This document shows, piece by piece, positions 12,516 through 58,084 of a stretch of DNA of 64,000 nt (positions within the stretch are counted from its first letter, which is position 1; every line of letters starts with the position of its first letter). The position numbers and the translations under genes were made by a program. The DNA is taken from the IMG/VR virus record IMGVR_UViG_3300029784_000200, one strand, 5' to 3'. The notes below the pieces were generated by a model. The model worked only from the letters and a program-made list of their open reading frames with translations. It was not told the origin of the DNA and made no database searches. The DNA comes from a virus.

Positions 12516-12543
12516 ATTAAAACGATAATTATAGAGAAATAAG

Positions 12544-16487: not shown

Positions 16488-17242
16488 CAAGTGCTTTGCG
16501 GAATTTTTAAATGAGGTGAAAAAAGAGGGTTAAAAATCGGAAAAAGCTTTTTCGCTCTCTCCGATTTTCGTAGGTAGCGGATGAGATTTCAGTTTGTGAA
16601 GGAAACAATCTGGATAACAGAAACATAAAAAATGAAAAAATAGAGAAGTCAAAGACGCGAGGATAAATCCATTTTCTTTTATCGCGTTCTTAGGTAGCGG
16701 CAGATGCTTTCGCTTGGACGTGAGCCTGTAAAACAGTGTCCGCATAAGAAACCGTCCTACGCCCCCCTGCCTTCATTTCCACCGTAAAATCCTGGAAATC
16801 CAATAAAATCCCGATAAAAATCACGAAAATTAAATGATCGTACCGCCTGACGTTCAGTTGAAAACTCCTTATTCCATAAGGATCCGGCAGAAAATGCAGA
16901 AAAAAATCCAGAAAGGAATGCTGGAACACATTCTATCCATCAGAGTGATAGAGAAAAGACGTTCAGACGTACCTTTGAAGCTCCGCCGACGCAAATTCCC
17001 GTCCTTCGGCGCTGGAAAGATAGTCGATTCAGGCGTCAGGGAGAGTAGTGCGGTTATACGTCCCCCTGTATTTTCCTCTTTCCATCCATTTTCCGCTGCC
17101 GTTTAACGATATCCGCGTATCGAAATCATGGAAAAGAGTACGTATTTCGGACTTTTCCGTAGGAAAACACCACGAATACCCATAGATCTGCAAAAGAGAA
17201 GAAAAAAGATGCAGAAAAAAGAAAAGAAAGCCCCAGCCTGAT

Positions 17243-17478
17243 ATCCTTGCGGATAAGAGATAGTGGCACCCTTAAGGGTGACGCAAAAAGACGTCCTCCG
17301 GTACTCCTTGCGGATAAGAGATAGTGGCACCCTTAAGGGTGACGCAAAAAGACGTCCTCCGGTACTCCTTGCGGATAAGAGATAGTGGCACCCTTAAGGG
17401 TGACGCAAAAAGACGTCCTCCGGTACTCCTTGCGGATAAGAGATAGTGGCACCCTTAAGGGTGACGCAAAAAGACGTC
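17243..17478. repeat. four tandem, near-perfect 61-bp repeats, each with the 14-bp palindrome CACCCTTAAGGGTG
   Basis: Unit TCCTTGCGGATAAGAGATAGTGGCACCCTTAAGGGTGACGCAAAAAGACGTCCTCCGGTAC at 17243, 17304, 17365 and 17426 (last copy diverges at its 3' end). 61 bp is not a multiple of 3. Confidence 0.9.
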
Positions 17479-33461: not shown

Positions 33462-33484
33462 AAGATTCCTCCTTTGTGTAAGTT

Positions 33485-33536: not shown

Positions 33537-33651
33537 ACTTTTTGGCAAAAATCAGCAAAGCGTTCTGATTATGCTATCAGCTTTTCTTGTCCGCAGATAC
33601 ATACTGAAAGTGTTATAAAAATATAAGACATTGAGAAATGGAGGAAAATTG

Positions 33652-41504: not shown

Positions 41505-43856
41505 ATGCAAAAGAAAAGAGAAAGAAAGGAAAGAACACAAGTGGGGAAATCATTATTCATCGCGGAGAAGCCGTCCGTGGCAATGGAATTTGCCAAGGCG
41601 CTTGACATGAAACCCGGGGAAAAGAAGAACGGATACCTGGAAGATGAACGCTACATCGTAACATGGTGTGTTGGACATCTGGTCACCTTATCCTACCCGG
41701 ATAAATATGACGAGAGATTAAAGAAATGGGAGCTGGAAACGCTGCCGTTCATCCCGAAGGAATATAAATATGAAGTGATTCCGGAGGTAGCAGCCCAGTA
41801 TAAAGTGGTAAAGACCCTCTTAAACCGGAAAGACGTGGACCGGATCTATTATTCCGGGGACTCTGCGCGCGAAGGAGAGTACATCCAGCGCCTCGTCCGT
41901 CAGATGGCGGGACATAATAAGGAAGCAAAAGAGTTCCGCGTCTGGATCGACTCCCAGACCAGGGAAGAGATCCGAAACGGTATCAAGAATGCCCATGAAC
42001 TGGCTTATTACGACAAATTATCGGATTCCGCCTATGCACGGGCGATCGAGGACTACCTGGTCGGCATTGACTTTTCCAGGGTCTTATCCATCAAATACGC
42101 AAATATGGTCTCCGGCGCGGCAGGGATCCGTTATACGCCGATTGCGGTCGGACGCGTCATGTCCTGTGTCCTTGGCATGATCGTGGAACGGGAACGCCAG
42201 ATCCGGAGTACGACCGTTATCCCATATTACGGGATCCGGTTAAACCTTTCCGATACGGTAAGCGCAGACTGGAAGATCCGGGACGGGTCCGCGTATGCAG
42301 CAGATCCGGACCGCTATAATGACGCCGGTCTCTTAAAAAAGGAAAAGACGGAAGCACTGATCAAGGATTTAAGCGCAAACGGCACCACCAGGTTTATAAA
42401 AAGGGAGAAAAAACAGGAGTCCAAGGCGGCGCCCCTGCTCTTTAACCTCGCCGAGCTCCAGGCGGAATGCACCAAACAGTTTCACATCAGCCCAGCAGAC
42501 ACCTTAAAGATCGCGCAGACCTTATACGAGGGAAAGCTAACCACATACCCGAGAACAGATGCCAGGGTCCTGACCACGGCGATCTGCAAAGTCTTCGATA
42601 AAAATATCCGCGGCCTCCAGAGCGTGGAGGAAGTGGCGGCATTTTCAAAGGAAGTACTGGACCAGGGCATGCAGGAGCCGCTCCGGCAAAAGACGACCAA
42701 ATACGTGGATGACTCCAAGGTATCTGACCATTATGCGATCATACCGACCGGTGAAGGATTTGAGACGTTAAAGAAACTTTCCCAGCTGGAAAAGGACGTT
42801 TATCTGCTGATCTGCAGACGTTTCTTAAGCATCTTTTATCCGCCCGCTGTTTACGACAAGCTGTCCTTTACCTGTAAGACGGCCAAGGAAGAATTTGACG
42901 GTTCCTACACAGCTGTTGCAAAGGAAGGATACTTAAAGGTAGCCGGAAGGAAAGATGACAAGGACGCAGCAGTTGCAATCACGGCGGTCATGAACATGCC
43001 GGAAGAAGTCTCACCGGTCACGTTCGACTTAAAAGAAGGAAAAAGCAAACCGCCAAAACGCTATACGACCGGTTCCATGATCCTTGCGATGGAAAATGCC
43101 GGAAAACTCATCGAGGATGAAGCACTCCGGGAACAAATTAAGGGATCCGGCATCGGTACGTCAGCAACCAGGGCGGAAACGATCTCAAAACTGGAGCGAC
43201 TGCAGTATATTGCCGTCAATAAAAAAACACAGACGATTACACCGGATAAACTCGGCGAGATGGTGTATGATGTCCTCCGCTTAAGTGTTCCGACCATCTT
43301 AAAACCGGACTATACGGCATCCTGGGAAACAGGCCTTCAGGGGATCGCGGATGGAAAATACACCAAACAGATCTATCTGGACAAGATCTATGCCTACATC
43401 GCAAAAAATACAGAAAATATGAAGGCGGAAAACCATGCGGAAGAGATCACAAAGAATATTCAGACCTTAAAAAAGGTATATCCGGACATCGGAAAAGCGC
43501 AGCCGGCAGATGCATCCGGCGCGGGTAATACTGCAGCCGGTACCTGCCCGGTATGCGGGAAACCATTAAGGATCAGCGAAAAGAGTATTTACTGCAGTGG
43601 GTACCAGGACGGATGTAAATTTACGATCTGGCGGGAGATCAGCGGCAAGAAATTGACCGATAAGCAGCTGGAGTCTTTAGCGAAGGGCATCAAAAAGAAT
43701 GGATCCGGCGGATACCAGTCCGCGCCGTCCGCGAAGATCTCCGGATTCAAGTCCAAAAAGGGGACGTCCTTTGACGCAAAACTGCAGGTAACCGGGATCG
43801 TAAACGGAAAGGTAGAAATTAAATTCGTGTTTGAGAATGCGCCGAAAAAGCCATAA
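41505..43856 (+). CDS. topB: DNA topoisomerase III (type IA) with C-terminal zinc ribbons
   Basis: KSLFIAEKPSVA / YIVTWCVGHLV (TOPRIM); C-terminal CPVCGKPLRISEKSIYCSGYQDGCKFTIW. The true start may be the GTG at 41541. Confidence 0.85.
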   Translation: MQKKRERKERTQVGKSLFIAEKPSVAMEFAKALDMKPGEKKNGYLEDERYIVTWCVGHLVTLSYPDKYDERLKKWELETLPFIPKEYKYEVIPEVAAQYKVVKTLLNRKDVDRIYYSGDSAREGEYIQRLVRQMAGHNKEAKEFRVWIDSQTREEIRNGIKNAHELAYYDKLSDSAYARAIEDYLVGIDFSRVLSIKYANMVSGAAGIRYTPIAVGRVMSCVLGMIVERERQIRSTTVIPYYGIRLNLSDTVSADWKIRDGSAYAADPDRYNDAGLLKKEKTEALIKDLSANGTTRFIKREKKQESKAAPLLFNLAELQAECTKQFHISPADTLKIAQTLYEGKLTTYPRTDARVLTTAICKVFDKNIRGLQSVEEVAAFSKEVLDQGMQEPLRQKTTKYVDDSKVSDHYAIIPTGEGFETLKKLSQLEKDVYLLICRRFLSIFYPPAVYDKLSFTCKTAKEEFDGSYTAVAKEGYLKVAGRKDDKDAAVAITAVMNMPEEVSPVTFDLKEGKSKPPKRYTTGSMILAMENAGKLIEDEALREQIKGSGIGTSATRAETISKLERLQYIAVNKKTQTITPDKLGEMVYDVLRLSVPTILKPDYTASWETGLQGIADGKYTKQIYLDKIYAYIAKNTENMKAENHAEEITKNIQTLKKVYPDIGKAQPADASGAGNTAAGTCPVCGKPLRISEKSIYCSGYQDGCKFTIWREISGKKLTDKQLESLAKGIKKNGSGGYQSAPSAKISGFKSKKGTSFDAKLQVTGIVNGKVEIKFVFENAPKKP

Positions 43857-43932
43857 GCGGTACGAAAATGCGATGGCATCTTGGAATGTTCCGCAAGAAG
43901 GTCAAAAGACACGTATCATTCCTGACCAATAT

Positions 43933-43986
43933 TGACCAAAAAGCGTTATCCGCAAAAATACAACTGTCTAAAATGATACATACTGG
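43933..43986 (+). promoter_or_regulatory. CRISPR leader promoter: TTGACC-box (CCAAAAAGCGTTATCCGCAAAAA) - N20 - CATACTGG (copy 9)
   Basis: Box at 43937-43959; CATACTGG at 43979-43986; 75 nt upstream of the first repeat. Confidence 0.6.
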
Positions 43987-44059
43987 TTCTGTTACGGAAG
44001 TCCAAGACTAAGGGAAGCAACGGCTTGCTAAGCATGGAAATCTCTATGAGGGATTTAGT

Positions 44060-44393
44060 ATTTGCCCCGTACACACGGGGATGAACCCAGGTTGTAGGAT
44101 CGGTGAGTGTCTTGGGATTCATTTGCCCCGTATACGCGGGGATGAACCCACACAACCATTTTTGCCACAAATCGGCGCAACATCTGCCCCGTATACACGG
44201 GGATGGGCCCAGAAAATCTCAGTCGCCACTTACGAAAATCGGATTTGTCCCGTATACGCGGGGATGAACCTACATTTCAATGTATGGATAAGACAGCCTT
44301 AGGATCTGCCCCCGTATACGCGGGGGATGAACCCTTGTTTCGCAGAGCAAATACGGGAACTCAGCCATCTGCCCCGTACACACGGGGATGAAT
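44060..44393 (+). CRISPR. CRISPR array 1a: 6 repeats of ~28 nt (ATYTGCCCCGTAYACRCGGGGATGAACC), ~33-nt spacers; type I-E-like repeat
   Basis: Repeats at 44060, 44121, 44183, 44242, 44305 and 44366. Palindromic CCCCG..CGGGG stem and ATGAACC 3' handle, as in I-E repeats. Confidence 0.9.
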
Positions 44394-44503
44394 CTATCCC
44401 ATACTGCCTACGCGATCATCAGTAGGAATCAACCATGCATGCACAGGGGCAGGCTCGCCGCAACGCTACAAACCTACAATATATCATTTCGGACCAATAT
44501 TGG

Positions 44504-44554
44504 CCAAAAAGCGTTATCCGCAAAAATACAACTGTCTAAAATGATACATACTGG
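44504..44554 (+). promoter_or_regulatory. duplicated leader promoter (copy 10)
   Basis: Box at 44504-44526; CATACTGG at 44547-44554. Confidence 0.55.
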
Positions 44555-44622
44555 TTCTGTTGCGGAAGTCCAAGACAAAAAAACGGCTTGCTAACCACAG
44601 GAATCTCCTTGAGGGATTTAGT

Positions 44623-45077
44623 ATCTGCCCTGTATACACGGGGATGAACCTAACCTCATGTGCAGCTTGCTATATTTTTCCAAATCTGCCCCGTATGCAC
44701 GGGGCTGAGCCATTCCCGGATGGTTTTGTAGTAGGTGTTGATGCATTCGAGCCCCGTACATGCGGGGATGAACCATCGTGCTCGGGGATGCAGGGCTTTT
44801 CCAACGGGTCTGCCCCGTATGCACGGGGATGAACCTATTAAAAATGAGCCAGTAATGCGGGAAGTGCCATTTGCTCCGTACACACGGGGATGAACCAGAG
44901 AGTAGTCAAGAGAATAATCAAATCTATATTCTTCCCGTACACACGGGGATGAATCATGGAGACGCAAATCTACAATGAGAGATCCCGGGTCTACCCCGTA
45001 TACACGGGGATGAGCCTATCACTTCGACATTATTCGCGCCACAACACAAATCCACTCCGTATGCACGAGAATGAGTT
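44623..45077 (+). CRISPR. CRISPR array 1b: 8 repeats (last two degenerate)
   Basis: Same repeat family. Spacer ATTCCCGGATGGTTTTGTAGTAGGTGTTGATGCATTCGAG at ~44713 is nearly duplicated in array 1c. Confidence 0.9.
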
Positions 45078-45121
45078 CGCTACGCCGCAATTGCCAAAAT
45101 ATGTATCATTTCTGACCAATA

Positions 45122-45175
45122 TTGACCAAAAAGTGTTATCCGCAAAAATGCGACTATCTAAAATGGTACATACTG
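45122..45175 (+). promoter_or_regulatory. duplicated leader promoter (copy 11)
   Basis: Box at 45126-45148; CATACTGG at 45168-45175. Confidence 0.55.
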
Positions 45176-45249
45176 GTTTTGTTGCGAAAGTCCAAGACGA
45201 AGGGAAGCAATGACTTGCCAAGCATGGAAATTTCCATGAGAGATTTAGT

Positions 45250-45524
45250 ATTTGCCCCATGCACACGGGGATGAACCTAAGCATAAGTGGCACCCTTGAT
45301 AAGGATATGGCATCCGCCCCGTATACACGGGGATGAACCGGCTTTTCACAATTATTGAGATGTTACACGAGGATCTACCCCGTATACACGGGGATGAGCC
45401 ATTCCCGGATGGTTTTGTAGTAGGTATTGACGCATTCGCCCCCGTATACACGGGGATGAACCTTGTGTGTAAGGGTTGCGAGAAAAGAATTATCGGATCT
45501 GCCCCGTATATACGGGGACGAGTT
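45250..45524 (+). CRISPR. CRISPR array 1c: 5 repeats (terminal repeat degenerate)
   Basis: Same repeat family; shares a spacer with 1b. Confidence 0.9.
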
Positions 45525-45572
45525 CGTTGCACCGCAATTGTCAAAAAATATGTTTCAATTCTGGATTAACAT

Positions 45573-45626
45573 TGACCAAAAAGTGTTATCCGCAAAAATA
45601 CATCTCAAAGAAATAATACATACTGA
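45573..45626 (+). promoter_or_regulatory. duplicated leader promoter (copy 12), also the probable cas operon promoter
   Basis: Box at 45577-45599; CATACTGA at 45619-45626. Confidence 0.55.
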
Positions 45627-45699
45627 CCTTGTCGTAGAGATCCAAGATGATAGGAATCAACGATGCGTCAGCCATAGAAAATTCTTTGAGGAATTTAGT

Positions 45700-45788
45700 A
45701 TCCGCCCCGTGCGTACGGGGATGAACCTGATCGGACGCTTCGGATCGGTCTCACGTAAAAATCCGCCCCGTGCGTACGGGGATGCCCC
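45700..45788 (+). CRISPR. CRISPR array 1d: 2 repeats, directly upstream of cas8e
   Basis: ATCCGCCCCGTGCGTACGGGGATGAACC at 45700 and ATCCGCCCCGTGCGTACGGGGATGCCCC at 45761. Confidence 0.8.
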
Positions 45789-45871
45789 CATAGAAGCACA
45801 AGGATGACAGTTAATAACAGTCTTTTCCATGTACATGGGGAATCAATTATAACAAAAGAAAGGAAAAAATC

Positions 45872-48256
45872 ATGCAGAAACAATTTTGTCTGGTAACAGA
45901 ACCGTGGATCAAAGTGATCGATCTGCAGGGCGAAGTAAAGGAACTCAGCTTAAAGAACGCCTTCGCGCAGGCACATGAAATCCGCTGCCTGGCAGGGGAG
46001 CTGCCGAACCAGGACTTTGCTGTCCTGCGATTTCTGTTAGCCATATTACAGACGGTAATGTACCGGTATGAACCGGACGGCACTGAGAAACTACTGACCG
46101 AACCGGAAGACGCGCTCAGACGGTGGAAAACAGTATGGGAAGATAAGAAATTGCCGGAAACAGTTGTAGACAAATACCTGGAGGAGTGGAAGGAACGCTT
46201 CTACTTATTCCACCCGGACCATCCGTTTTATCAGGTTCCGGGAATCGAAGGAATGGGTACCTCCATCTCACCCGGCAGGATGATCGCGGCAGTCGGGGAA
46301 AGCGACAATAAGGCAAGGATCTTCGGTACATACTCTACCCGCGGAAAGAACGGGATTACGGATGCAGAACTTACCAGATGGATTTTACATTTCCAGGCAT
46401 ATGATACAAAATCCACCAAGATCATAAGAGGCCCCGTTGACCCGGAAAGAGGGAAACTGCATCCAAGGATCGCATGGTGCGGAAATCTCGGCGCCGTATA
46501 CCTGGAAGGCGACAACCTGTTTGAAACGCTGATGTTAAATCTGGTACTGCTTCGCACGGATATTACAGAAGATACCTGCTTTGCCAAACCGAAACCATCA
46601 TGGGAGAGGGACGTATTAAAACCCATTGAGGATAACATCCGAACAGATATCGATAACCAGGCGGAACTGTTATCCATGCCGTGCCGCTGGCTTTTCGTCA
46701 GCCGGCAACAGGATACCTTTTCAGCATCCTCTGTCGTTGGTGAAAACCTCGATCCAAAAAACGCCTTCCTGGAGCAGATGACCTTATGGAGGCCTGTTTA
46801 CGTGAAGGCCAAGGAAGGGGCTGTCACGGATGGGTTCATTCCAAGCCTTTCTGATTACACCAGGGAGAGCATCCCGGACCGGACCGATTTTGGACGCGGT
46901 ATGTGGAACCGGTTCAGCGCCATCACATCGGAACAGGAAGATGCGAGAAAACCCGGCATTATCCTCTGGATGCAGAAGCTGACCGACCGCGGCATCCTCT
47001 CTGAAGAAAAGGCAGTGGCCTTAAAAGGGATCGACACGGTATACCACAAACAGCAGGGAAGCATGGTCATGGACGTAAAGGGAAGCTCCATTGACATGAG
47101 GCTGCTGTTTTTAGGAACGCGCGGCAAGGTATGGAGAGAGATGTTAGACCGCGTCATCCGGCTGACCAACCAGGTGGCGGAAATCTATGCAACCTTTTAT
47201 ATGGAGACATGCAGCGCAATCGGACATTCCTATAACGGCAATACCTTCGGAACCAGATCGGAAGGGGCCGAAATGTTCTATGGAGCTGTGGATGCGCCAT
47301 TAAGGAAATGGCTTTCCGAAATCAACGACCGCGTGACAACACCGGATGAACCGGAAATCACCCCGGAAATGTTTGAAAGAAAATGGGAAGCAGTTGCGTT
47401 CCGCACTCTGGACCGCTGCGCGAAAGAGCGGATCCGCTCCTGTGGCATGGCAGGGATCCGGATCATAGAGTCCGAGACGGCAACATCCGGATATACAGGG
47501 CTTGCATCATGTTACGATAAGCTCTGGTTTACCATAAGAAAGGTCACGGATCATGCACTGGATGAGATCTACTGGAATATGGATCCGCACTCCGACCGCG
47601 CGGATGAGGTGTGTGATTACGTAAGGGAAAAGATCCTTCGGTATCGGAGGACTGCGGATGATCCTAAGACGGTACGGGAACTGGCGCTGCTGCGCAGGAG
47701 CGTTGGACAGGATCCGGAAAACGCATCCAAAATTGCGCAGACTGTTTTACAGGACTTTGAGGAAACCTACCGCGCGGCAACCGGATACACGCGTGCAGAA
47801 CGCGCGGTCTTTGCGGCACTTACCTTATATGCAAGAAGTTTCAAGGATAAAAACGAGGACGGACACACGGAGGAAGCCTCTTTCGGATGCGCCGTAAGAC
47901 TTGCCGCCACGGACAAAGAAACCGGAAAAGAGGACGCAGACTGCTTAAAGCAGATCGTCCGGTACATGAACCGCATCCTCTCGGCGGATTACCTGCAGAC
48001 GCTGGTGCACCATGCGGACAGCCTGTTTCGGGTACAGAAAGGCCGGATGCCAGGATTCGATTACGGCTGGTTTGCAAAGGATCTATTCCTCTGGCAGATC
48101 CGGGAATACAATCCGTCCGTAAAGCTTGCATGGTCTGCGGATTTTCTCCGCAGAAGGAAAACGGCAAAGCTGGATGCAGGAATGCAGGAACAGGAAGAAA
48201 CCGGACCGGATCCGGGTACCAAGAAAACCAAAAAGGCAAGAAAAACAAAAAAATAA
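45872..48256 (+). CDS. cas8e-cas11: Cas8e (Cse1/CasA) fused in-frame to Cas11 (Cse2/CasB) - large+small subunit fusion, 794 aa
   Basis: N-terminal LVTEPWIKV and FYLFHPDHPFYQ parallel CasA LIDNWIPV and FYLNHAEHPFMQ. The C-terminal ~190 aa (…LKQIVRYMNRILSADYLQTLVHHADSLF…DYGWFAKDLFLWQ…VKLAWSADF) parallel the CasB helical pattern (…LDWPLMARMLTWWGK…LLEDF). Confidence 0.75.
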   Translation: MQKQFCLVTEPWIKVIDLQGEVKELSLKNAFAQAHEIRCLAGELPNQDFAVLRFLLAILQTVMYRYEPDGTEKLLTEPEDALRRWKTVWEDKKLPETVVDKYLEEWKERFYLFHPDHPFYQVPGIEGMGTSISPGRMIAAVGESDNKARIFGTYSTRGKNGITDAELTRWILHFQAYDTKSTKIIRGPVDPERGKLHPRIAWCGNLGAVYLEGDNLFETLMLNLVLLRTDITEDTCFAKPKPSWERDVLKPIEDNIRTDIDNQAELLSMPCRWLFVSRQQDTFSASSVVGENLDPKNAFLEQMTLWRPVYVKAKEGAVTDGFIPSLSDYTRESIPDRTDFGRGMWNRFSAITSEQEDARKPGIILWMQKLTDRGILSEEKAVALKGIDTVYHKQQGSMVMDVKGSSIDMRLLFLGTRGKVWREMLDRVIRLTNQVAEIYATFYMETCSAIGHSYNGNTFGTRSEGAEMFYGAVDAPLRKWLSEINDRVTTPDEPEITPEMFERKWEAVAFRTLDRCAKERIRSCGMAGIRIIESETATSGYTGLASCYDKLWFTIRKVTDHALDEIYWNMDPHSDRADEVCDYVREKILRYRRTADDPKTVRELALLRRSVGQDPENASKIAQTVLQDFEETYRAATGYTRAERAVFAALTLYARSFKDKNEDGHTEEASFGCAVRLAATDKETGKEDADCLKQIVRYMNRILSADYLQTLVHHADSLFRVQKGRMPGFDYGWFAKDLFLWQIREYNPSVKLAWSADFLRRRKTAKLDAGMQEQEETGPDPGTKKTKKARKTKK

Positions 48257-48289
48257 ACACCACTATTTTATAAGAAAAGGAGAAAAATT

Positions 48290-49525
48290 ATGAATACCAA
48301 AGGACTTTTTATGGCTGTACATGTCATCCAGAGCTACCCGAGCAACAATTTAAACAGAGGAGAAGACGGATCACCGAAAAGCTGCATTTTCGGCGGCGTC
48401 AGAAGAAGCCGCGTCTCCAGTCAGTGCATCAAGCGTAACGCACGCTTAGCCATGTACGACGTCATTTCTGAAAATGATGAAAACGGCATGGGTATCCGCA
48501 CAAAGACCATGCCGGCCATCATCGCAGCGTTTCTGGAAAAATGGGCCGAGTCAGCGGAAAATGTAACATGGACAGACGATGAGATGGAGAAACAGAAATA
48601 CCATGAAGCGGCAAAAGAATTCGACATCCGTGACGTATCCCATGCCCTGACCGCGGTCGGCATGCAGATTGACGCGAAAAAGAACCATACCTTAAAAAGT
48701 GTTTACTGTACGAACGTGAAGCAGTGTGTGGCATTTGCAAAAACGATGCTGGAGATCGGAAGCAAGCGTGCAGGAGAAGATAAGGACGGTAACTTAAAGT
48801 TAAATCCGTACGATACAAAAACAGAACTTCCGGCCCTGGACGACGCATTGGATTCCTCGATTTCCCTGGACATCATGATGTTCGGAAGAATGCAGGCAGG
48901 AAGACCCATCCATAACGTGGAAGCCTGCATCCAGGTAGGACATGAGTTCTCTACGCATCGCGCGGAAGAAGAATTTGACTACTTCACTGCCGTGGATGAT
49001 GCAAAAGACATGTTAAAGGAGCAGGGCTCCGCGCATCTGGATACCCAGGAGTTCACCTCCGCAACCATGTACCGTTACAGCAGTGTGGATCTTGGCGCCA
49101 TGTACCAGGCCATGAAGAACAACGGTTCCGATATGGGCCTGGCCATGTTAGCAAAGGAGTGGGTACGTGCTTTTGCATTGGCAGCGCCGACCGGAAAACA
49201 GAATTCCTTCGCAGCGACCACCCTGCCGGTCTACGTTTTTGTAGAGTTCCGCAATGACGCACCGGTAAGCTTTGCGAACGCTTTTGAAAAAGCGGTAGAA
49301 GCCGGAACAGACGGATATGAGGGCGCATCCGTAAAAGCGTTCGAGGAACGTGTCAGACGCTCTGATGCAATCGGATGGCTTCATGCACCGGTCGCAAGAT
49401 TTTTAGTTAGCGAACAGGCATCTTCCCTGCAGGACTGCACCCAGCCGAACTTCAATGCTTTGCTGGACCATGTCGAGGAAACCGTAAAAGATGCGGTATC
49501 CGGTATGGAAAAGGAGCGTTCATGA
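48290..49525 (+). CDS. cas7e: Cas7e (Cse4/CasC) Cascade backbone subunit
   Basis: FGGVRRSRVSSQCIKR, FDYFTAVDD...EQGSAHLDTQEFTSATMYRY and ANAFEKAVEAG are collinear with E. coli CasC; RBS AAAGGAGAAAAATTATG. Confidence 0.9.
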   Translation: MNTKGLFMAVHVIQSYPSNNLNRGEDGSPKSCIFGGVRRSRVSSQCIKRNARLAMYDVISENDENGMGIRTKTMPAIIAAFLEKWAESAENVTWTDDEMEKQKYHEAAKEFDIRDVSHALTAVGMQIDAKKNHTLKSVYCTNVKQCVAFAKTMLEIGSKRAGEDKDGNLKLNPYDTKTELPALDDALDSSISLDIMMFGRMQAGRPIHNVEACIQVGHEFSTHRAEEEFDYFTAVDDAKDMLKEQGSAHLDTQEFTSATMYRYSSVDLGAMYQAMKNNGSDMGLAMLAKEWVRAFALAAPTGKQNSFAATTLPVYVFVEFRNDAPVSFANAFEKAVEAGTDGYEGASVKAFEERVRRSDAIGWLHAPVARFLVSEQASSLQDCTQPNFNALLDHVEETVKDAVSGMEKERS

Positions 49526-50262
49526 GTACCCTGTTATTCCGTCTCGCCGCGCCGATGCAGGCGTGGGGGACGGAACCGAGGTTCGACAAATGGCTCCGTA
49601 CGGGCATGGAGCCAAGTAAAAGCGGAGTGATCGGCATGGTTGCTTCCGCCATGGGGATCGACCGGACGGACGATGAAGCACTCCAAAACCTGGTAAAACG
49701 CTTACGGTTCGGCGTCTGCGTGGACCGGGAGGGAACCGTCATTACGGACTATCATGCGACCCGCGTGGTCCCATATCCGGAATGCAGCTACAGGGATCTT
49801 TTTTCCGACAATATCGTGATACGCGGAAAGAAGATCCCGGACACGGCCATTTCCAAATATGACTATAAAAAGTATTACTTATCCGATGCGGCGTTCACCG
49901 TTGGACTGGAGTGCAAGGATGACTCTCTGTTACATACCATCCTGGAAGCACTGCGGCACCCAAAACGAATGCTGTACCTTGGACGGAAATCCTGTCCACT
50001 TATGGAAGAACTGGATGGTGTCATTGTAAAGAAAGCCGTGCTGCCGGCATTAAAGGAACACGCCGAAGCCAAGGCAGATGGACGGTACCATACCTGCAGG
50101 ATCATCTATGACGCGGAAAAGGGAGAACGCGGGACACTGGTAAACGATGAGCCGGTTTCATTCAATGCCCATAAAAAAGTCTGGGCTCCCCGCATGGCAG
50201 CAGAGACCATGGTGGAGATATTCCCACAGTCCGAACAGCACGACCCATTTGCATTTGTATAA
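49522..50262 (+). CDS. cas5e: Cas5e (CasD)
   Basis: MSTLLFRLAAPMQAWGTEPRF and YLGRKSCPL parallel CasD LAGPMQAWGQPTFEG and YLGRRSCPL; ATGA overlap with cas7e. Confidence 0.9.
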   Translation: MSTLLFRLAAPMQAWGTEPRFDKWLRTGMEPSKSGVIGMVASAMGIDRTDDEALQNLVKRLRFGVCVDREGTVITDYHATRVVPYPECSYRDLFSDNIVIRGKKIPDTAISKYDYKKYYLSDAAFTVGLECKDDSLLHTILEALRHPKRMLYLGRKSCPLMEELDGVIVKKAVLPALKEHAEAKADGRYHTCRIIYDAEKGERGTLVNDEPVSFNAHKKVWAPRMAAETMVEIFPQSEQHDPFAFV

Positions 50263-50265
50263 GGA

Positions 50266-50290
50266 GCCCCGTAGATACGGGGAGAAAGAA
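50266..50290 (+). other. solo CRISPR-repeat-like hairpin between cas5e and cas6e (GCCCCGTAGATACGGGGAGAAAG)
   Basis: Same CCCCG...CGGGG stem as the array repeats, with 6-nt loop and A-rich 3' side. Confidence 0.45.
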
Positions 50291-50297
50291 GGAACGT

Positions 50298-50936
50298 ATG
50301 TATTACTTAACCAGGATCGAACTGGATCCGTATAAAAAACTAACACAGCTGGCTTTAAAAAACGCCAACATGATCCATGGAACCATTGAAAAGGTCTTTG
50401 GAAACGAAGCGGAACGGAAGCTCTGGCGTATCGACAGCCTGCGTGGCAGACGGTATCTGATGATCGTCAGCCGGACGCTGCCGGATTTTACACCGTTACT
50501 TGCACAGTTTGCGCCGGACGGCGCCAAGAGCCAGTCAAAATCTTATGACGCCTTTCTGGAAAGCATCAAAGACGGAAGCCAGTGGAACTTTAAGCTTTGC
50601 GGGGTACCGCTCGTGTGCAGGAAGACAGAAAGCAGCCCGAACGGGAAGCGGTTCCCGCTCTTGAAGCCGGAGGAACAGATGGAGTGGCTTATAAAGAAGG
50701 GAAATCTCCACGGATTCACGGTAAATCCGGAACACATCCGGATCACGGATACCGGCCCGTCCAAGCTTTCAAAAGGCGCAGGAGAAGACCATTACGAATT
50801 CCGAATCCGGAAAGTAATATTTGACGGTATCCTGACCGTGACGGACCCGGAAAAATTCCGGGATGCCATGGTAAACGGAATCGGCAAGGAGCGGGCATTC
50901 GGAGGTGGTATGATCACGGTGGTACCGCGCCCGTAG
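50298..50936 (+). CDS. cas6e: Cas6e (CasE) pre-crRNA endoribonuclease
   Basis: MYYLTRIELDPYKK...HGTIEKVFG and C-terminal GIGKERAFGGGMITVVP parallel CasE (…GIGPAKSMGCGLLSLAPL). Confidence 0.85.
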   Translation: MYYLTRIELDPYKKLTQLALKNANMIHGTIEKVFGNEAERKLWRIDSLRGRRYLMIVSRTLPDFTPLLAQFAPDGAKSQSKSYDAFLESIKDGSQWNFKLCGVPLVCRKTESSPNGKRFPLLKPEEQMEWLIKKGNLHGFTVNPEHIRITDTGPSKLSKGAGEDHYEFRIRKVIFDGILTVTDPEKFRDAMVNGIGKERAFGGGMITVVPRP

Positions 50937-52581: not shown

Positions 52582-52866
52582 ATGAACAGACAGGAGTTAG
52601 TAAACGCAATCGCAGCAAACAGTGGGATCAGCAAAAAAGACATCGACGAAGTTTTAAAAAACTTTGTGACCGTTGTCATGGATGACGTAGCCGCAGGAAA
52701 CAAAGTGCAGCTGATCGGTTTTGGTACCTTTGAAAGCACAACCAGAGCTGCACGCGAGATGCGTAACCCGAGAACCGGTGAAGTGAGCATGTATCCGGAG
52801 TCCCGTAACGCCAAATTCAAACCGTCCAAAGTATTCAAGGACAAGGTCAATAACTCACGACTGTAG
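52582..52866 (+). CDS. hup: HU/IHF-family DNA-binding protein
   Basis: MNRQELVNAIAANSGISKKDIDEVL...RNPRTGE...SKVFKD, canonical HU fold sequence. Confidence 0.85.
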   Translation: MNRQELVNAIAANSGISKKDIDEVLKNFVTVVMDDVAAGNKVQLIGFGTFESTTRAAREMRNPRTGEVSMYPESRNAKFKPSKVFKDKVNNSRL

Positions 52867-52899
52867 TCGCAAGCTTGAAGCGATTATGTTTTCATTACC

Positions 52900-53206
52900 G
52901 TTTCAAGTTTTGTGATGGAGGGACCGGCGAGAGCCGTGATTGATTAGCCGGCACAGTCCCGCCACCGGCTGGGCCGTGTTAGGCGTTATGCAGGAAATTA
53001 GGCACTCCGGGGTGCTCCACAAGCCCCGGACCCTGCGGCATCCGGTTAAACATCCCTGAGAGTACGGGGAAGTGCCGGATGTGTTCAAACCCTGCAGAAC
53101 ATCGGCGATGTGGACCACCGTCCTTCGGGGCGAGAAGCCGTACGGGCGAAGCTCTGCTTTGCCGGTACGGGAATGCGTAAGCATAGCAAAGAAAAGGAGG
53201 CACCAT
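52900..53206 (+). ncRNA. candidate omegaRNA scaffold of IscB (GC-rich structured region immediately 5' of iscB; includes IS-end-like segment 52913-52982)
   Basis: About 300 nt, noncoding, GC-rich with multiple hairpins (e.g. GGCACTCCGGGGTGCTCC and CCGTCCTTCGGGGCG). IscB omegaRNAs are encoded upstream of and overlapping the iscB 5' end. The ORF track start at 53072 has no RBS, whereas 53207 has AAGGAGG. Confidence 0.4.
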
Positions 53207-54553
53207 ATGGTAGCCGTATTAAGTAAGACCGGCATCCGTCTGATGCCGACATCCAGTTACCGGGCAAGGAAACTCCTTGCCAAAAAGAAAGCAGTCATCT
53301 GCGGGTACCGCCCGTTTACCATCCGTCTCACAGAACGTGAGACCGGGGACGTACAGCCGGTGGAACTTGCAGTTGATACAGGATACTTCCATGTGGGGAA
53401 CAGCTTAAAAACAGCGAAGCACGAATTAGCTGCCGTTGAGATCCGTGCCCTAATGGACGAGAAGCGAAGATATGACGACCGGCGCCAGTACCGCAGGATG
53501 CGGCGCTCAAGGCTCCGCTACCGTGCCCCGCGGTTTGATAACCGCAGGCGGCCGGAGGGATGGCTCGCGCCGTCCATCCAGGGACGCATGGAACAGAACC
53601 TGGCATTTTTAAGACGGATCCTATCCGTCGTGCCGGTCACCCGTATCGTTATGGAGATGGGACAGTTTGATACCCAGGTATTAAAAGCCGTGGAGGAGGG
53701 AAGGCCCCTTCCGGAAGGAACGGATTACCAGCAGGGAGAGCGTTACGGGATTGCCACCTTACGGGAGGCAGTCTTTACCCGTGACAATTACACCTGCCAG
53801 TGCTGCCAAAAGACGGTCTGTGATGGCGCGATCCTTCATGTCCACCACATCGTATACCGGAGCCAGGGAGGGACCGACCGGATGGGGAACCTGATCACGG
53901 TCTGTGAGAAATGCCATACCCCGAAGAACCATAAACCGGGAGGAAAGCTGTACAAATGGAAACCGACGGTCAAAAGCTTCAAGGGGGCAACGTTCATGAC
54001 TGCCGTCCGGTGGATCGTGTACCGGTCCGTGAAGAAGTCTTTCCCGGATGTGGATGTAAGAATCACATACGGGGCAAAAACAAAGCTGCAGCGACGAGCA
54101 ATGGATATCACCAAGAGTCATGTCAATGACGCTTATGTCATGGGAGACTTCCATCCGAAGCACCGGGCCCGTCCGGTCATCCTGCAGAAGAAACGGCGGA
54201 ATAATCGGATCCTGGAAAAGTTCTATGATGCAAAATACATAGACACCCGGGATGGAAGTAAAAAGACCGGACAGCAGCTCTTTAACGGACGTACGAACCG
54301 GAACCATAACACGGATACGGAAAACCTGCGGCTATACCGTGGGATGAAATTATCAAAAGGCAGACGGGCAATCCGTACCACAAGGTACAGGATTCAGCCT
54401 CATGATATCCTTGTATATCAGGGACAGGAAATGGAAGCGTCCGGCTGCCATAACAAAGGAACCAGAGTCATGACGACTGCAAAGAAATCCCTTCCAATTG
54501 GAAAAGTCCGCGTCAGACGGTATTCCGGAGGGTATTATGCGGTCGCAGAATAA
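53207..54553 (+). CDS. iscB: IscB (OMEGA RNA-guided nuclease; PLMP - RuvC-I - Arg-rich bridge helix - HNH - RuvC-III), 448 aa
   Basis: N-terminal GIRLMPT (PLMP motif); LAVDTGYFHVG (RuvC-I-like); RRQYRRMRRSRLRYRAPRFDNRRR (bridge helix); HNH CQCCQK...HVHHIVYRSQGGTD...NLITVCEKCH; size typical of IscB. Confidence 0.75.
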   Translation: MVAVLSKTGIRLMPTSSYRARKLLAKKKAVICGYRPFTIRLTERETGDVQPVELAVDTGYFHVGNSLKTAKHELAAVEIRALMDEKRRYDDRRQYRRMRRSRLRYRAPRFDNRRRPEGWLAPSIQGRMEQNLAFLRRILSVVPVTRIVMEMGQFDTQVLKAVEEGRPLPEGTDYQQGERYGIATLREAVFTRDNYTCQCCQKTVCDGAILHVHHIVYRSQGGTDRMGNLITVCEKCHTPKNHKPGGKLYKWKPTVKSFKGATFMTAVRWIVYRSVKKSFPDVDVRITYGAKTKLQRRAMDITKSHVNDAYVMGDFHPKHRARPVILQKKRRNNRILEKFYDAKYIDTRDGSKKTGQQLFNGRTNRNHNTDTENLRLYRGMKLSKGRRAIRTTRYRIQPHDILVYQGQEMEASGCHNKGTRVMTTAKKSLPIGKVRVRRYSGGYYAVAE

Positions 54554-57392: not shown

Positions 57393-57484
57393 AATTTTCC
57401 TCTTTTCTTTCGTGATTAGATTATTTGTAGTTACAAATGACCGGTTACAGTCATTTTTAGCGGGATATAACCGCGCCCTTAACC

Positions 57485-57874
57485 GGGCATCCCCGTACAT
57501 ACGGGGCTAACTAATATGAGCGAGCCAACATGGTATGTCGGGGTGCATCCCCGCGTATACGGGGCAGATTGGCAAAAATTTTCCAGTCCACTCGATAATC
57601 ATCGGTGCATCCCCGTGCGCACGGGGCAGATAACAGATTTCTTACGAGGCACACTTCCTGTCTTGGCTCATCCCCGTGTATACGGGGCAGATTTTTGTCG
57701 ATACCGATAGGCCCTGAACGATGTGGATTCATCCCCGCGCGCGGGGGCAGATTCAATTCCCGGATCATGAGTCATGCCACCATTCGGTTCATCCCCGTGC
57801 ATACGGGGCAGATGCAATTTTGCTTTCACCTAACTGCTGTACGTACGGCTCATCCCCGTACATACGGGGCGGAT
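57485..57874 (-). CRISPR. CRISPR array 2: 7 repeats of the same I-E-like family, inverted relative to array 1
   Basis: Plus-strand GGCTCATCCCCGTACATACGGGGCAGAT is the reverse complement of ATCTGCCCCGTATGTACGGGGATGAGCC. Repeats at ~57485, 57542, 57603, 57664, 57725, 57786 and 57847. Confidence 0.9.
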
Positions 57875-57946
57875 ACTAAATCCTCAAAAAAGTCCTCTGG
57901 GTCGATGGATAAGCGGTTTCTTTTGTCCCGGCTTCCTACGATAAAA

Positions 57947-57998
57947 TCAGTATGTATCATTTCTTTTAGATATATTTTTGCGGATAACACTTTTTGGT
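57947..57998 (-). promoter_or_regulatory. leader promoter of array 2: element box - N20 - CATACTGA (copy 14)
   Basis: Reverse complement of 57976-57998 is the 23-bp box; TCAGTATG at 57947-57954; leader end GAGGATTTAGTAT matches the array 1 leaders. Confidence 0.6.
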
Positions 57999-58084
57999 CA
58001 AAAAACAGACGGATACAAAATCCTTCTGCTATTCAGAAAATATCCTCATCCGGACAATGCATCCGGCTATTCACACAAAAACAG

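What the first reader, a model, noticed from the sequence alone, without database searches (positions are those of the whole stretch)
43921..50936. Cas3-/Cas1-/Cas2-less type I-E Cascade operon with a Cas8e-Cas11 fusion ORF on a plasmid/phage-like element
Repeat structure (CCCCG-loop-CGGGG stem, ATGAACC handle, 28-29-nt repeat and 32-33-nt spacers) and the gene order cas8e, cas7e, cas5e, cas6e are classic type I-E. Two things are unusual. First, the large and small subunits are one 794-aa ORF, whereas in canonical I-E cse1 and cse2 are separate genes. Second, no cas3, cas1 or cas2 occurs anywhere in the 64 kb. The flanks are topoisomerase III on one side and LCP/hup/iscB on the other. The element also carries parAB, a rep gene and iterons, so this is an extrachromosomal-element-borne, interference-nuclease-less Cascade. 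It could act by CRISPRi-like silencing of competing elements, or borrow a host Cas3 in trans. The two mechanisms predict different spacer targets (promoters/origins versus anywhere).
Basis: partly seen in the sequence, partly recalled or inferred. Interest (0 to 1): 0.85.

Follow-up and report, generated by a model that had tools for sequence, protein, structure and literature searches.

The report
Cas3-less type I-E Cascade on megaplasmid
A large plasmid-like element from human gut bacteria carries a stripped-down CRISPR system that has the DNA-recognition complex and its guide arrays but no cutting enzyme and no spacer-acquisition genes nearby, and its guides point at sibling copies of the same element and at a phage-like element, so it most likely serves competition between mobile elements.

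Summary
ORF 45872-48256 is one 794-aa protein with a Cse1/Cas8e fold (about aa 1-560) joined by a short disordered linker to a Cse2/Cas11 fold (aa 575-762). It is followed by cas7e, cas5e and cas6e. No cas1, cas2 or cas3 lies in the 64 kb, in 8 kb further left, or within 10 kb in relatives. The whole replicon (at least 213 kb) could not be checked.

New findings:
- There is no single array. Four tandem leader+mini-array units sit upstream and a fifth on the minus strand at 57.5 kb, 25 spacers in all.
- Every leader carries an element-wide promoter-like motif.
- All four cas genes are under strong purifying selection (dN/dS 0.05-0.09).
- Close strains share trailer spacers and differ at the leader ends, so spacers are still being acquired.
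- Four protospacers were found, all with a 5'-AA PAM. Three are in sibling elements, near a primase-like gene of the replication module or in an integrase gene. One is in an unrelated ~48-kb phage-like contig.
- The Cas8e-Cas11 fusion also occurs in a complete chromosomal I-E locus with cas3, so it is not tied to Cas3 loss.

Best reading: a selected, minimal I-E Cascade used for inter-element competition. Binding-only interference is favoured, and host Cas3 acting in trans is not excluded. It is a new variant of a known kind.

The parts
43906..44059 (+). Leader 1, carrying the element-wide promoter-like motif (GTTATCCGCAAAAAT at 43945)
   Evidence: 182-nt repeat family D1; motif scan
44060..44455 (+). 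Mini-array 1: 6 repeats plus a degenerate terminal repeat, spacers S1.1-S1.6
44474..44622 (+). Leader 2
44623..45077 (+). Mini-array 2: 8 repeats (the last degenerate), spacers S2.1-S2.7
45096..45249 (+). Leader 3
45250..45524 (+). Mini-array 3: 5 repeats, spacers S3.1-S3.4. S3.3 is a diverged copy of S2.2
45546..45699 (+). Leader 4. It is probably also the promoter of the cas operon, since array 4 ends 22 nt before the cas8e ATG
   Evidence: Co-transcription is inferred
45700..45849 (+). Mini-array 4: 2 repeats plus a degenerate third, spacers S4.1-S4.2
45872..48256 (+). cas8e-cas11 fusion gene (794 aa): Cse1 fold about aa 1-560, disordered linker 564-568, Cse2 fold 575-762, basic disordered tail 763-794
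48290..49525 (+). cas7e (411 aa)
   Evidence: Pfam Cas_CT1975 E 4e-88; TIGR01869
49522..50262 (+). cas5e (246 aa), with no HNH insertion
   Evidence: TIGR01868 E 6e-42, covering aa 2-225
50266..50281 (+). Repeat-like hairpin CCCCGTAGATACGGGG directly upstream of the cas6e Shine-Dalgarno sequence. It is a vestige of an intra-operon array and a likely Cas6e binding or processing site
   Evidence: Its stem matches the stem of each element's own CRISPR repeat in L001, L002 and L004
50298..50936 (+). cas6e (212 aa). A His aligns with the catalytic His of T. thermophilus Cse3
57481..57874 (-). Mini-array 5: 7 repeats, spacers S5.1-S5.6. It lies outside the finding's coordinates
57875..58030 (-). Leader 5, with the same promoter-like motif (57974-57988)
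16561..16593 (-). The element's own, diverged copy of the site targeted by spacer S1.3. It has 8 mismatches, including seed positions 1-4, so it is not self-targeted
17244..17478 (+). Perfect 61-nt x 3.9 tandem repeat with the palindrome CACCCTTAAGGGTG. The homologous repeats in siblings match positions 1-20 of spacer S3.1

Best explanation
This is a functional, minimal type I-E-derived surveillance module carried by a plasmid-like element of at least 213 kb from human gut Bacillota.

Proposed steps:
1. Five short CRISPR arrays are each transcribed from their own leader. Every leader carries the element's general promoter-like motif.
2. Cas6e cuts the transcripts at the repeat hairpins into 61-nt crRNAs.
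3. The crRNAs assemble with Cas7e, Cas5e and a single Cas8e-Cas11 fusion protein into a Cascade.
4. This Cascade recognises double-stranded DNA next to a 5'-AA PAM.
5. Because no Cas3 or other nuclease belongs to the module, the committed mechanism is binding-only (CRISPRi-like) interference. A stable R-loop on a competitor's DNA blocks its transcription or replication. The recovered targets are sibling variants of the same element, at and around the primase-like gene next to the replication and partition module, and an integrative phage-like element. The outcome would be exclusion of competitors from the host cell.
6. New spacers are added at the leader ends by an adaptation complex supplied in trans, most likely a host type I-E Cas1-Cas2.

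Shown: gene identities, the fusion, selection, array structure, polarised turnover, the targets and the PAM.
Inferred: crRNA processing, complex assembly, binding-only outcome, and the source of Cas1-Cas2.
For: Identity: all four genes pass curated I-E cut-offs. The fusion is confirmed by fold.

Function under selection: dN/dS is 0.05-0.09 for all four genes against a 95%-identical sibling. The identical protein is indexed in 38 blocks of the public assembly collection, and the contigs shown come from several metagenome studies. Cas6e keeps a His aligned with the catalytic His of T. thermophilus Cse3.

No nuclease partner:
- No cas3 in the 64 kb, in 8 kb further left, or within 10 kb in relatives L001 and L002.
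- None on the 10.6-kb and 13-kb contigs that carry the module in other contexts, L004 and L146.
- No gene neighbour is conserved across these contexts.
- No HNH or PD-(D/E)xK domain in any subunit.

Targets:
- S1.3 matches 33/33 in 12 contigs that are 82-98% identical siblings of this element. The carrier's own site is diverged in the seed.
- Positions 1-20 of S3.1 match the siblings' 61-nt repeats.
- Spacers from two close strains hit sibling integrase and primase-like genes, at 31/33 and 29/33.
- S1.2 matches 33/33 in a phage-like IMG/VR contig that shares no other sequence with the element.
- All four full protospacers are preceded by AA.

Adaptation is active: L161 shares trailer spacers but has different leader-end spacers, with R1 identical to R2. 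L143 has one extra leader-end spacer compared with L144, and its R1 and R2 share a private variant. Chromosomal I-E arrays in two metagenome loci that hold its closest unfused and fused relatives have the same 28-nt repeat and 33-nt spacer geometry.

Precedent:
- Cascade without Cas3 silences genes efficiently (PMC4288158).
- Cas11 is dispensable for silencing (PMC12235044).
- Plasmid type IV-A3 and V-M systems exclude rivals without cutting, and IV-A3 borrows host I-E adaptation (PMC11656645).
Against: - Only 64 kb of an element of at least 213 kb was inspected, so a cas3 or cas1-cas2 elsewhere on the replicon is not excluded. Some variants carry a small I-C-like Cas7 fragment.
- Ongoing adaptation implies a host with Cas1-Cas2, and in I-E systems these usually come with Cas3. 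Degradative interference in trans is therefore quite possible.
- Three of the targets cluster within about 1.3 kb. That could reflect primed adaptation, which in I-E needs Cas3. The sibling DNA available is also biased to that region, because it was fetched around the S1.3 hit.
- Only 2 of the 25 window spacers have exact targets, and a third matches only over its first 20 positions.
- Nothing shows expression, crRNA processing or DNA binding.
Confidence: 0.45

Rival explanations
1. Borrowed nuclease. The element supplies Cascade and guides. Target destruction is carried out by a Cas3 provided in trans, either by the host's chromosomal type I-E system or by a locus elsewhere on the element. 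The system would then be a true degradative, and possibly priming-competent, I-E system with split ownership.
For: - Leader-polarised acquisition shows that adaptation proteins reach these arrays.
- Complete I-E loci with cas3, cas1 and cas2-dnaQ and the same 28/33-nt array geometry occur on chromosome-type metagenome contigs (housekeeping-gene flanks) that hold its closest relatives.
- The Cas8e part is a full-length Cse1 fold.
- Protospacers occur inside coding regions as well as non-coding DNA.
- Three protospacers cluster within about 1.3 kb, as priming would give.
Against: - The closest unfused, chromosomal-type Cas8e proteins are only 33-38% identical. Cas3 recruitment depends on a specific Cas8e surface (established for E. 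coli and T. fusca), so cross-compatibility is doubtful.
- A clade spanning 39-100% identity has kept the Cas3-less state in at least three different genomic contexts.
- The arrays are short, with degenerate repeats, unlike the 37-48 perfect repeats of chromosomal systems. This points to rare adaptation.
Confidence: 0.3
2. Another effector. The Cascade recruits a non-Cas3 protein of the element, as DinG serves type IV-A. Candidates are the adjacent PIN-PhoH2 ATPase, topoisomerase III, the UvrD-like helicase, or the stand-alone HD protein (37295-37864) together with the SF2 helicase (31164-33548).
For: - PhoH2-TopoIII-[arrays]-cas and SSB-[array]-PARP-UvrD synteny is kept in elements whose Cas8e is only 57-59% identical.
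- The HD protein gives sub-threshold hits to Cas3 HD models, E 1e-3 to 9e-6.
Against: - The HD protein scores far better as an HDIG/HD-GYP-type domain (E 1e-14 to 1e-21), and the helicase resembles RadD and type I restriction helicases.
- Similar short HD and helicase genes in gut megaplasmids were read as a MOBH-like relaxase pair (PMC12934698).
- In L004 and L146 the same cas module has entirely different neighbours. The synteny is therefore probably backbone conservation.
Confidence: 0.12
3. Non-defence role, or decay. The locus could be a decaying remnant. Alternatively it could serve something other than targeting rivals: self-regulation of element genes, RNA-guided transposition, or a decoy that soaks up host Cas proteins.
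For: - The repeats are degenerate and the arrays short.
- No nuclease or adaptation genes are present.
- Most spacers (22 of 25) have no match at all.
- A repeat-like hairpin inside the operon hints at RNA-level regulation.
Against: - dN/dS of 0.05-0.09 and intact ORFs across a clade of 39-100% identity argue against decay.
- No spacer matches the element itself, apart from a seed-mismatched homologue.
- No Tn7-like tnsA, tnsB, tnsC or tniQ genes lie next to the module.
- The exact targets lie in rival elements and have a consistent PAM.
Confidence: 0.08

Closest known systems
Canonical type I-E CRISPR-Cas (E. coli K-12, T. fusca, S. thermophilus CRISPR4; chromosomal loci L162 and L148 fetched here)
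   Same: - Cas8e, Cas11, Cas7e, Cas5e and Cas6e families, in the same order.
- 28-nt hairpin repeat, 33-nt spacers, 61-nt period.
- 5'-AA PAM, as reported for S. thermophilus I-E (from my own knowledge).
- Leader-end spacer addition.
   Different: - No cas3, cas1 or cas2 in the neighbourhood.
- Cas8e and Cas11 are one polypeptide, so one Cas11 domain per complex is encoded instead of the usual two.
- Five mini-arrays, each with its own leader, instead of one long array.
- A repeat-like hairpin or mini-array between cas5e and cas6e.
- Carried by a megaplasmid-like element.
Type IV-A3 plasmid CRISPR-Cas (and type V-M Cas12m)
   Same: - Borne on large plasmids.
- No nuclease and no adaptation module.
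- Spacers aimed at rival plasmids.
- Spacers acquired through a host I-E Cas1-Cas2 in trans.
- Interference without cutting (PMC11656645; 10.1101/2023.06.23.546257).
   Different: - The proteins here are I-E families, not Csf.
- No DinG helicase partner.
- The lifestyle would be convergent, not a family relationship.
I-E2 (Cas5-HNH) and I-E3 (Cas11-PD-(D/E)xK) variants
   Same: - I-E-derived.
- I-E2 usually lacks Cas3 and sometimes has cas8 fused to cas11 (PMC10910872, PMC12669027).
   Different: - Cas5e here is 246 aa with no HNH domain.
- The fusion protein has no nuclease domain.
- Solved Cas5-HNH Cascade large subunits are more distant structural matches (TM 0.49-0.57) than classical Cse1 (0.61-0.79).
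Cas3-less type I Cascades of CRISPR-associated transposons (I-F3, I-B, I-E5)
   Same: A minimal Cascade plus short arrays on a mobile element, with loss of the interference nuclease.
   Different: - No Tn7-like or other transposase module next to the genes.
- Targets are rival elements rather than attachment sites.
Chromosomal type I-E loci with a fused Cas8e-Cas11 (P0018/P0137 clade, L148)
   Same: The same domain fusion in one ORF of 746 aa.
   Different: - Only 30% identical.
- Sits in a complete cas3...cas1-cas2 locus with a long, perfect array.
- Fused and unfused forms coexist within one 90% cluster, so it is an independent and recent fusion.

Membership tests
Type I-E CRISPR-Cas | Cas8e (Cse1) large subunit | tested here: met
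   PF09481 E 6e-72; TIGR02547 at 105 bits against a cut-off of 70; fold TM 0.76 to T. fusca Cse1
Type I-E CRISPR-Cas | Cas11e (Cse2) small subunit | tested here: met
   Present as the C-terminal domain of the same ORF: PF09485 E 2e-16; TIGR02548 at 60 bits against a cut-off of 28.5; fold TM 0.71 to T. fusca CasB. No separate cas11 gene. An internal Met at the junction is not conserved
Type I-E CRISPR-Cas | Cas7e, Cas5e and Cas6e | tested here: met
   TIGR01869, TIGR01868 and TIGR01907 all score above their cut-offs. Cas6e keeps a His aligned with the catalytic His of T. thermophilus Cse3
Type I-E CRISPR-Cas | I-E type repeat (28-29 nt with a stable hairpin), 32-33-nt spacers, AA-type 5' PAM | tested here: met
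   PAM AA in 4 of 4 protospacers
Type I-E CRISPR-Cas | Cas3 (HD nuclease plus SF2 helicase), the signature protein of type I | tested here: not met
   Absent from the 64-kb window, from 8 kb further left, and from within 10 kb in relatives. The rest of the replicon of at least 213 kb is not testable with these tools
Type I-E CRISPR-Cas | Cas1-Cas2 adaptation module | tested here: not met
   Same searches as for Cas3; tblastn with Cas1 and Cas2 of L148 gave nothing. Array turnover shows that adaptation nevertheless happens
I-E2 (Cas5-HNH) variant | HNH nuclease domain fused to Cas5e | tested here: not met
   Cas5e is 246 aa and is covered over aa 2-225 by the Cas5e model, with no HNH hit
I-E3 variant | PD-(D/E)xK (VRR-NUC) nuclease fused to Cas11 | tested here: not met
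   No such Pfam hit. The model shows only Cse1 and Cse2 folds plus a disordered basic tail
Type IV-A CRISPR-Cas | Csf1, Csf2 and Csf3 effector proteins and a DinG helicase | tested here: not met
   All subunits score as I-E. Only Cas6e gives weak secondary hits to type IV Cas6 models (E 2e-9 against 1e-44 for I-E). No DinG was found
CRISPR-associated transposons | Adjacent Tn7-like or Mu-like transposition genes (tnsA/B/C, tniQ) | tested here: not met
   None in the window or in the relatives' flanks. IscB is a separate insertion that is absent from L001 and L002
'Hodor' conjugative megaplasmids of the human gut (PMC12934698) | [quoted passage not shown] | tested here: inconclusive
   Fits: human gut source; related contigs of 213 kb (this element), 212 kb (a syntenic relative) and 357 kb (one carrying the S1.3 target); ParA and ParB; a short HD protein and a helicase; a VirD4-like gene in L001; a non-coding region of more than 2 kb beside an HTH gene. 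Not seen: Rep_3 by Pfam, sortases or a sec module in the window. The paper names a I-C system, not I-E. Its sequences and supplements are not held

The most novel reading that the evidence does not exclude
A type I-E Cascade has converged on the type IV lifestyle. It acts as a natural, nuclease-free CRISPRi device that enforces exclusion between sibling gut megaplasmids. It does this by sitting on the rival's replication-control region (the 5' end of the primase-like gene, its upstream non-coding DNA and the tandem repeats). Its guides are refreshed by parasitising the host's I-E adaptation machinery. Its own expression is wired into the element's private promoter system, and a repeat-derived hairpin gives Cas6e feedback on the cas6e gene.
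Probability: 0.35. Interest if true: 0.75.

Novelty: new variant of a known kind. Interest (0 to 1): 0.62.

Why it matters
[quoted passage not shown] That would show that loss of the nuclease is repeatedly favoured on large mobile elements.
- It offers a compact, naturally optimised four-gene Cascade with a single-chain large and small subunit. This is attractive for CRISPRi, base editing or recruitment tools.
- The element is common in human gut metagenomes. Its guide content therefore records conflicts between megaplasmid lineages and phage-like elements in the gut, and could help to link such elements to each other and to their hosts.

Tried and rejected
- Megablast of the locus against PLSDB plasmids and INPHARED phages found no match.
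- tblastn of the fusion against plasmids gave only hits of 29% identity or less, mostly Streptomyces Cas8e, none covering 80% of the query. Against phages it gave one unannotated human faecal contig at 31%.
- Concatenated spacers searched against phages (25 spacers) and plasmids (48 spacers, including relatives') found no match.
- Viral-contig scans found nothing for S1.1, S2.2/S3.3, S2.1, S5.1, S1.5 and S1.6.
- The genome-collection scan with the repeat core was too unspecific.
- Internal translation of a separate Cas11, as in I-B, I-C and I-D: a Met sits at the domain junction (aa 570). It has no convincing Shine-Dalgarno sequence and is replaced by I, L or V in 5 of 10 clade members, so this idea was dropped.
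- A split Cas3 made of the HD protein plus the SF2 helicase was rejected on profile scores.
- The missing S1.1 in L009 was first read as evidence for acquisition. Repeat variants make a deletion more likely. The acquisition argument rests on L161 and on L143 versus L144 instead.
- A phage identity for the element: no structural or packaging gene was found with Pfam or PHROGs. One sibling contig is nevertheless listed in IMG/VR.
- A look-up of the right-edge protein, meant to extend the window, found no record.

Full report
**1. What is in the sequence**

Between the topoisomerase III gene (41505-43856) and cas8e there is no single array. There are four tandem units. Each unit has a ~150-nt leader, and the four leaders form one repeat family with 61-88% identity to the reference copy (which includes the first repeat). 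Each leader is followed by a short array of 2-8 repeats.

The repeat is 28 nt, consensus ATCTGCCCCGTATACACGGGGATGAACC. It has a 6-bp stem, a tetraloop and a 3' ATGAACC handle. Spacers are 33 nt (31-35). Many repeats carry substitutions, and the last repeat of each array is degenerate.

A fifth unit with the same leader lies on the minus strand at 57481-58030, between the SSB and PARP genes. It is outside the reported coordinates. I count 25 spacers, 19 of them inside the finding. S2.2 and S3.3 are diverged copies of one spacer, so at least part of the multi-unit layout arose by segmental duplication.

**2. The genes**

ORF 45872-48256 (794 aa) matches Cse1 over aa 7-505 and Cse2 over aa 588-760. 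Both matches are above the curated cut-offs. The next three ORFs are Cas7e, Cas5e and Cas6e.

An AlphaFold model was built on 45 homologues (pLDDT 82, pTM 0.76). It shows:
- a Cse1 fold up to about residue 560;
- a low-confidence linker at 564-568;
- an all-helical domain at 575-762;
- a disordered lysine-rich tail at 763-794.

Foldseek puts T. fusca, A. ferrooxidans, T. thermophilus and E. coli Cse1 first (TM to target 0.61-0.79). T. fusca and T. thermophilus CasB follow for the C-terminal part (0.71-0.74). No third domain appears. Cas5e has no HNH insertion. Cas6e keeps a His aligned with the catalytic His of T. thermophilus Cse3.

**3. Is the fusion real, and how common is it**

Twelve further 90%-identity clusters, at 29-95% identity, carry both Pfam domains in one protein. 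They align end to end, with conserved columns throughout the Cas11 part.

Against one representative per 50% cluster of 15 billion proteins, only about two fused clusters appear among the best 150 Cas8e relatives. The fusion is therefore rare.

It is not unique to Cas3-less loci. The 30%-identical P0018/P0137 clade is fused, yet it sits in a complete chromosomal cas3-cas8e11-cas7-cas5-cas6-cas1-cas2(DnaQ) locus with a long array. Its 90% cluster also holds unfused 539-aa and 199-aa versions.

A Met at the domain junction (aa 570) has no clear ribosome-binding site and is not conserved. I therefore found no support for a separately translated Cas11. Cas11 is reported to be dispensable for Cascade silencing in E. 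coli (PMC12235044), so a single Cas11 domain need not be a handicap.

**4. Missing genes**

Pfam, NCBIfam and PADLOC searches of essentially all ORFs of at least 120 aa found no Cas1, Cas2 or Cas3. tblastn with Cas3, Cas1 and Cas2 from the related complete locus found nothing either.

Two candidates were examined and set aside:
- A stand-alone HD protein (37295-37864) gives only sub-threshold Cas3-HD hits. It scores far better as an HDIG/HD-GYP-type domain.
- The SF2 helicase (31164-33548, minus strand) resembles RadD and type I restriction helicases.

The same module without cas3, cas1 or cas2 occurs in:
- syntenic elements whose Cas8e is 57-59% identical (L001 on a 212-kb contig, and L002);
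- two unrelated contexts, L004 (58%) and L146 (39%).

No accessory gene is shared across these contexts. The element is at least 213 kb. Absence from the whole replicon is therefore not shown.

**5. The carrier**

The window holds:
- ParA and ParB;
- 210-nt and 41-nt iteron-like repeats in a 2.2-kb non-coding stretch;
- a primase-like zinc-ribbon gene;
- NAD-dependent ligase, PhoH2, topoisomerase III, SSB, a UvrD-like helicase and HU;
- PARP and an ADP-ribosylglycohydrolase-family gene;
- a fragmentary RNA polymerase beta'-like ORF;
- no phage structural gene.

A relative carries a VirD4-type coupling protein next to the cas genes. A sigma-70-family gene lies just left of the window. The identical Cas8e-Cas11 protein is indexed in 38 blocks of the public assembly collection, and the contigs shown come from several metagenome studies.

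A 2026 preprint describes 211-389-kb conjugative 'Hodor' megaplasmids of gut Bacillota. They have ParAB, a short HD relaxase plus a helicase, and a CRISPR system that the authors call I-C (PMC12934698). This element may belong to that class or a related one. I could not test this.

**6. Expression signals**

A 15-nt core, GTTATCCGCAAAAAT, occurs 15 times in the window where 0.23 are expected. Each copy lies upstream of a gene or array and in the same orientation. It is part of a longer bipartite motif, (T)GACCAAAAAGTGTTATCCGCAAAAAT, then about 19 nt, then CATACTG.

All five CRISPR leaders have this motif. In the window, leader 4 with its two to three repeats sits directly in front of cas8e. 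The cas operon is therefore probably read from that leader (inference). In L002 the operon has its own copy of the motif. The arrays are thus wired into the element's own transcription programme.

**7. A repeat-derived hairpin inside the operon**

Between the cas5e stop and the cas6e ribosome-binding site lies CCCCGTAGATACGGGG. Its stem equals the stem of the CRISPR repeat.

- In L001 and L002 the hairpin at this position has the stem of those elements' own repeats: CCCCGC/GCGGGG in L001, and TCCTGC/GCAGGA in L002 (one base per arm from a CCCTGC/GCAGGG repeat variant there).
- In L004 and L146 the same position holds a mini-array of three and six repeats respectively.

The hairpin is thus a conserved, co-varying vestige of an intra-operon array. 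It is a plausible Cas6e binding or cleavage site that could set cas6e expression (inference).

**8. Selection and dynamics**

dN/dS against the 95%-identical sibling L143 is 0.05-0.09 for each of the four genes. Arrays are identical in most contigs that carry the identical protein. Polymorphism sits at the leader ends:
- The close strain L161 shares S1.2, S1.3, S1.5, S1.6, S3.3, S3.4 and S4.2.
- L161 has different leader-proximal spacers in three arrays, and its first two repeats are identical.
- L143 has one extra leader-proximal spacer compared with L144, flanked by two repeats that share a private variant.

Siblings at 87-95% protein identity share no spacers with the window. This is the signature of polarised acquisition by Cas1-Cas2. 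That machinery must therefore come from elsewhere.

Chromosomal I-E loci on chromosome-type metagenome contigs that hold its closest relatives have the same geometry of 28-nt repeat and 33-nt spacer. Their repeat is 20 of 28 identical to this one and 23 of 28 identical to that of L001 (by my own count). Their arrays hold 37-48 perfect repeats.

**9. Targets**

*S1.3.* It has 11 exact non-array matches in human gut metagenome contigs and one in IMG/VR. All are 82-98% identical siblings of this element's own 6-28-kb region. The site lies in the non-coding DNA upstream of the primase-like gene. The carrier's own copy (16561-16593, minus strand) differs at 8 of 33 positions, including the first four.

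*S3.1.* Positions 1-20 match the siblings' versions of the 61-nt tandem repeat about 700 nt away.

*Spacers from close strains.* A spacer of L161 matches the siblings' primase-like gene at 29 of 33. A spacer of L143/L144 matches a tyrosine-recombinase gene in siblings at 31 of 33. In both coding-region cases the spacer has the sense-strand sequence. The crRNA therefore cannot pair with the mRNA, and the target is DNA.

*S1.2.* It matches 33 of 33 and 32 of 33 in two ~48-kb IMG/VR contigs that share nothing else with the element. The site lies beside a large serine integrase gene. Nearby are genes for a repressor, a RecE-like exonuclease and an anti-restriction protein.

*PAM.* All four full protospacers are preceded by AA. 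The chance of that is roughly 1e-4 at about 30% A.

The remaining 22 window spacers have no match in the collections I could search.

**10. Interpretation**

The module is a selected, working I-E-derived Cascade that targets rival mobile elements. These are chiefly sibling variants of its own carrier. The role is therefore the inter-element competition known for plasmid type IV-A3 and V-M systems and for plasmid CRISPR systems in general (PMC11656645, PMC9071438).

For the effector step I favour binding-only interference, for three reasons:
- A clade spanning 39-100% identity keeps the four-gene, nuclease-free state in three contexts.
- No partner gene is conserved across those contexts.
- Cascade alone is an efficient silencer (PMC4288158).

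I hold this at 0.45. Active adaptation implies contact with a host I-E system that would also bring a Cas3. The rest of the replicon is also unseen.

The clustering of three targets within 1.3 kb near the replication module fits either explanation: selection for sites where mere binding hurts, or priming. The sibling DNA I hold is also biased to that region.

**11. Novelty**

Cas3-less I-E derivatives are known. I-E2 has Cas5-HNH and sometimes a cas8-cas11 fusion. I-E5 belongs to transposons. Each of these has another effector (PMC10910872, PMC12669027). Nuclease-free rivalry between plasmids is known for types IV-A and V-M.

In the papers searched I did not find a nuclease-free, adaptation-free I-E Cascade that combines:
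- a fused large and small subunit;
- several arrays, each with its own leader;
- an intra-operon repeat;
- sibling-directed spacers on a gut megaplasmid.

I rate it a new variant of a known kind.

Noticed in passing
window, 15 sites (e.g. 4175-4189(-), 12553, 14303, 20596, 30336(-), 33522(-), 37919, 41451, 52446, 62457) plus the five CRISPR leaders: An element-wide bipartite promoter- or operator-like motif: (T)GACCAAAAAGTGTTATCCGCAAAAAT, about 19 nt, then CATACTG. The 15-nt core occurs 15 times where 0.23 are expected by chance. Each copy lies upstream of a gene and in the same orientation. A sigma-70-family gene lies just left of the window (L151 15689-16720), and an RNA polymerase beta'-like fragment ORF is at 22176-23438. 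The element may run its own transcription programme.
   Followed up: partly
window 50266-50281; L001 14505-14544; L002 14317-14357; L004 6457-6673; L146 10229-10575: A CRISPR-repeat-like hairpin sits between cas5e and cas6e. In L004 and L146 the same position holds a full mini-array. The stem matches (L001) or nearly matches (L002) each element's own repeat, and the 3' arm runs into the cas6e ribosome-binding region. This suggests Cas6e-dependent processing or autoregulation.
   Followed up: partly
window 52846-54553: IscB (RRXRR + HNH; NF040563 E 2e-93) with its HEARO/omega RNA (Rfam RF02033, 103 bits). It is absent from the syntenic relatives L001 and L002, so it is a recent insertion next to the cas locus.
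   Followed up: partly
window 17244-17478, 11636-12528 and 10835-10914: A perfect 61-nt x 3.9 tandem repeat with the palindromic core CACCCTTAAGGGTG. Also 210-nt x 4.2 and 41-nt x 2 iteron-like repeats that share AAAAGTCCAYRTTTTTAGCGACAAAAAT, in a 2.2-kb non-coding region between an HTH gene (9358-10443, minus strand) and an ORF with no hits (12697-14253). This is probably the replication or partition control region.
   Followed up: partly
L004 3479-4461: In one relative a ~1-kb stretch separates cas8e-cas11 from cas7e. Its reverse-frame translations repeat an SSPxxRG-type motif, which suggests a different kind of repeat array. The DNA was not examined for repeats.
   Followed up: no
L156 and L157, 11956-20223: Variants with an identical cas operon replace the flotillin-SSB-array-5 region by other genes. 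These include an 80-aa fragment that hits Cas_Cas7 (PF05107, the family I recall as I-C DevR/Csd2) next to a transposase. This may relate to the 'type I-C system with degraded array' reported for Hodor megaplasmids.
   Followed up: no
window 29681-30277 (-): A 198-aa ORF with a weak Cas12f1-like/TnpB TNB-domain hit (E 2e-4). It is probably a TnpB remnant.
   Followed up: no
window 58210-59535 and 14374-15348: A PARP catalytic-domain protein lies beside array 5, and an ADP-ribosylglycohydrolase-family protein lies beside the putative rep region. Together they could form an ADP-ribosylation writer and eraser pair on the element.
   Followed up: no
L164 1670-1702 (IMGVR_UViG_3300029672_000178) and L165: The phage-like target of spacer S1.2 lies just past the 3' end of a large serine integrase gene, inside a 118-aa ORF with no hits. 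The ~48-kb element carries a repressor, a RecE-like exonuclease and an anti-restriction gene. Its relation to the prophages reported on gut megaplasmids is unknown.
   Followed up: partly
window 16255-17385 compared with L011-L021: The non-coding region that holds the S1.3 target is less conserved between siblings (82%) than the flanking genes (88-98%). This fits rapid divergence of a CRISPR-targeted control region.
   Followed up: no
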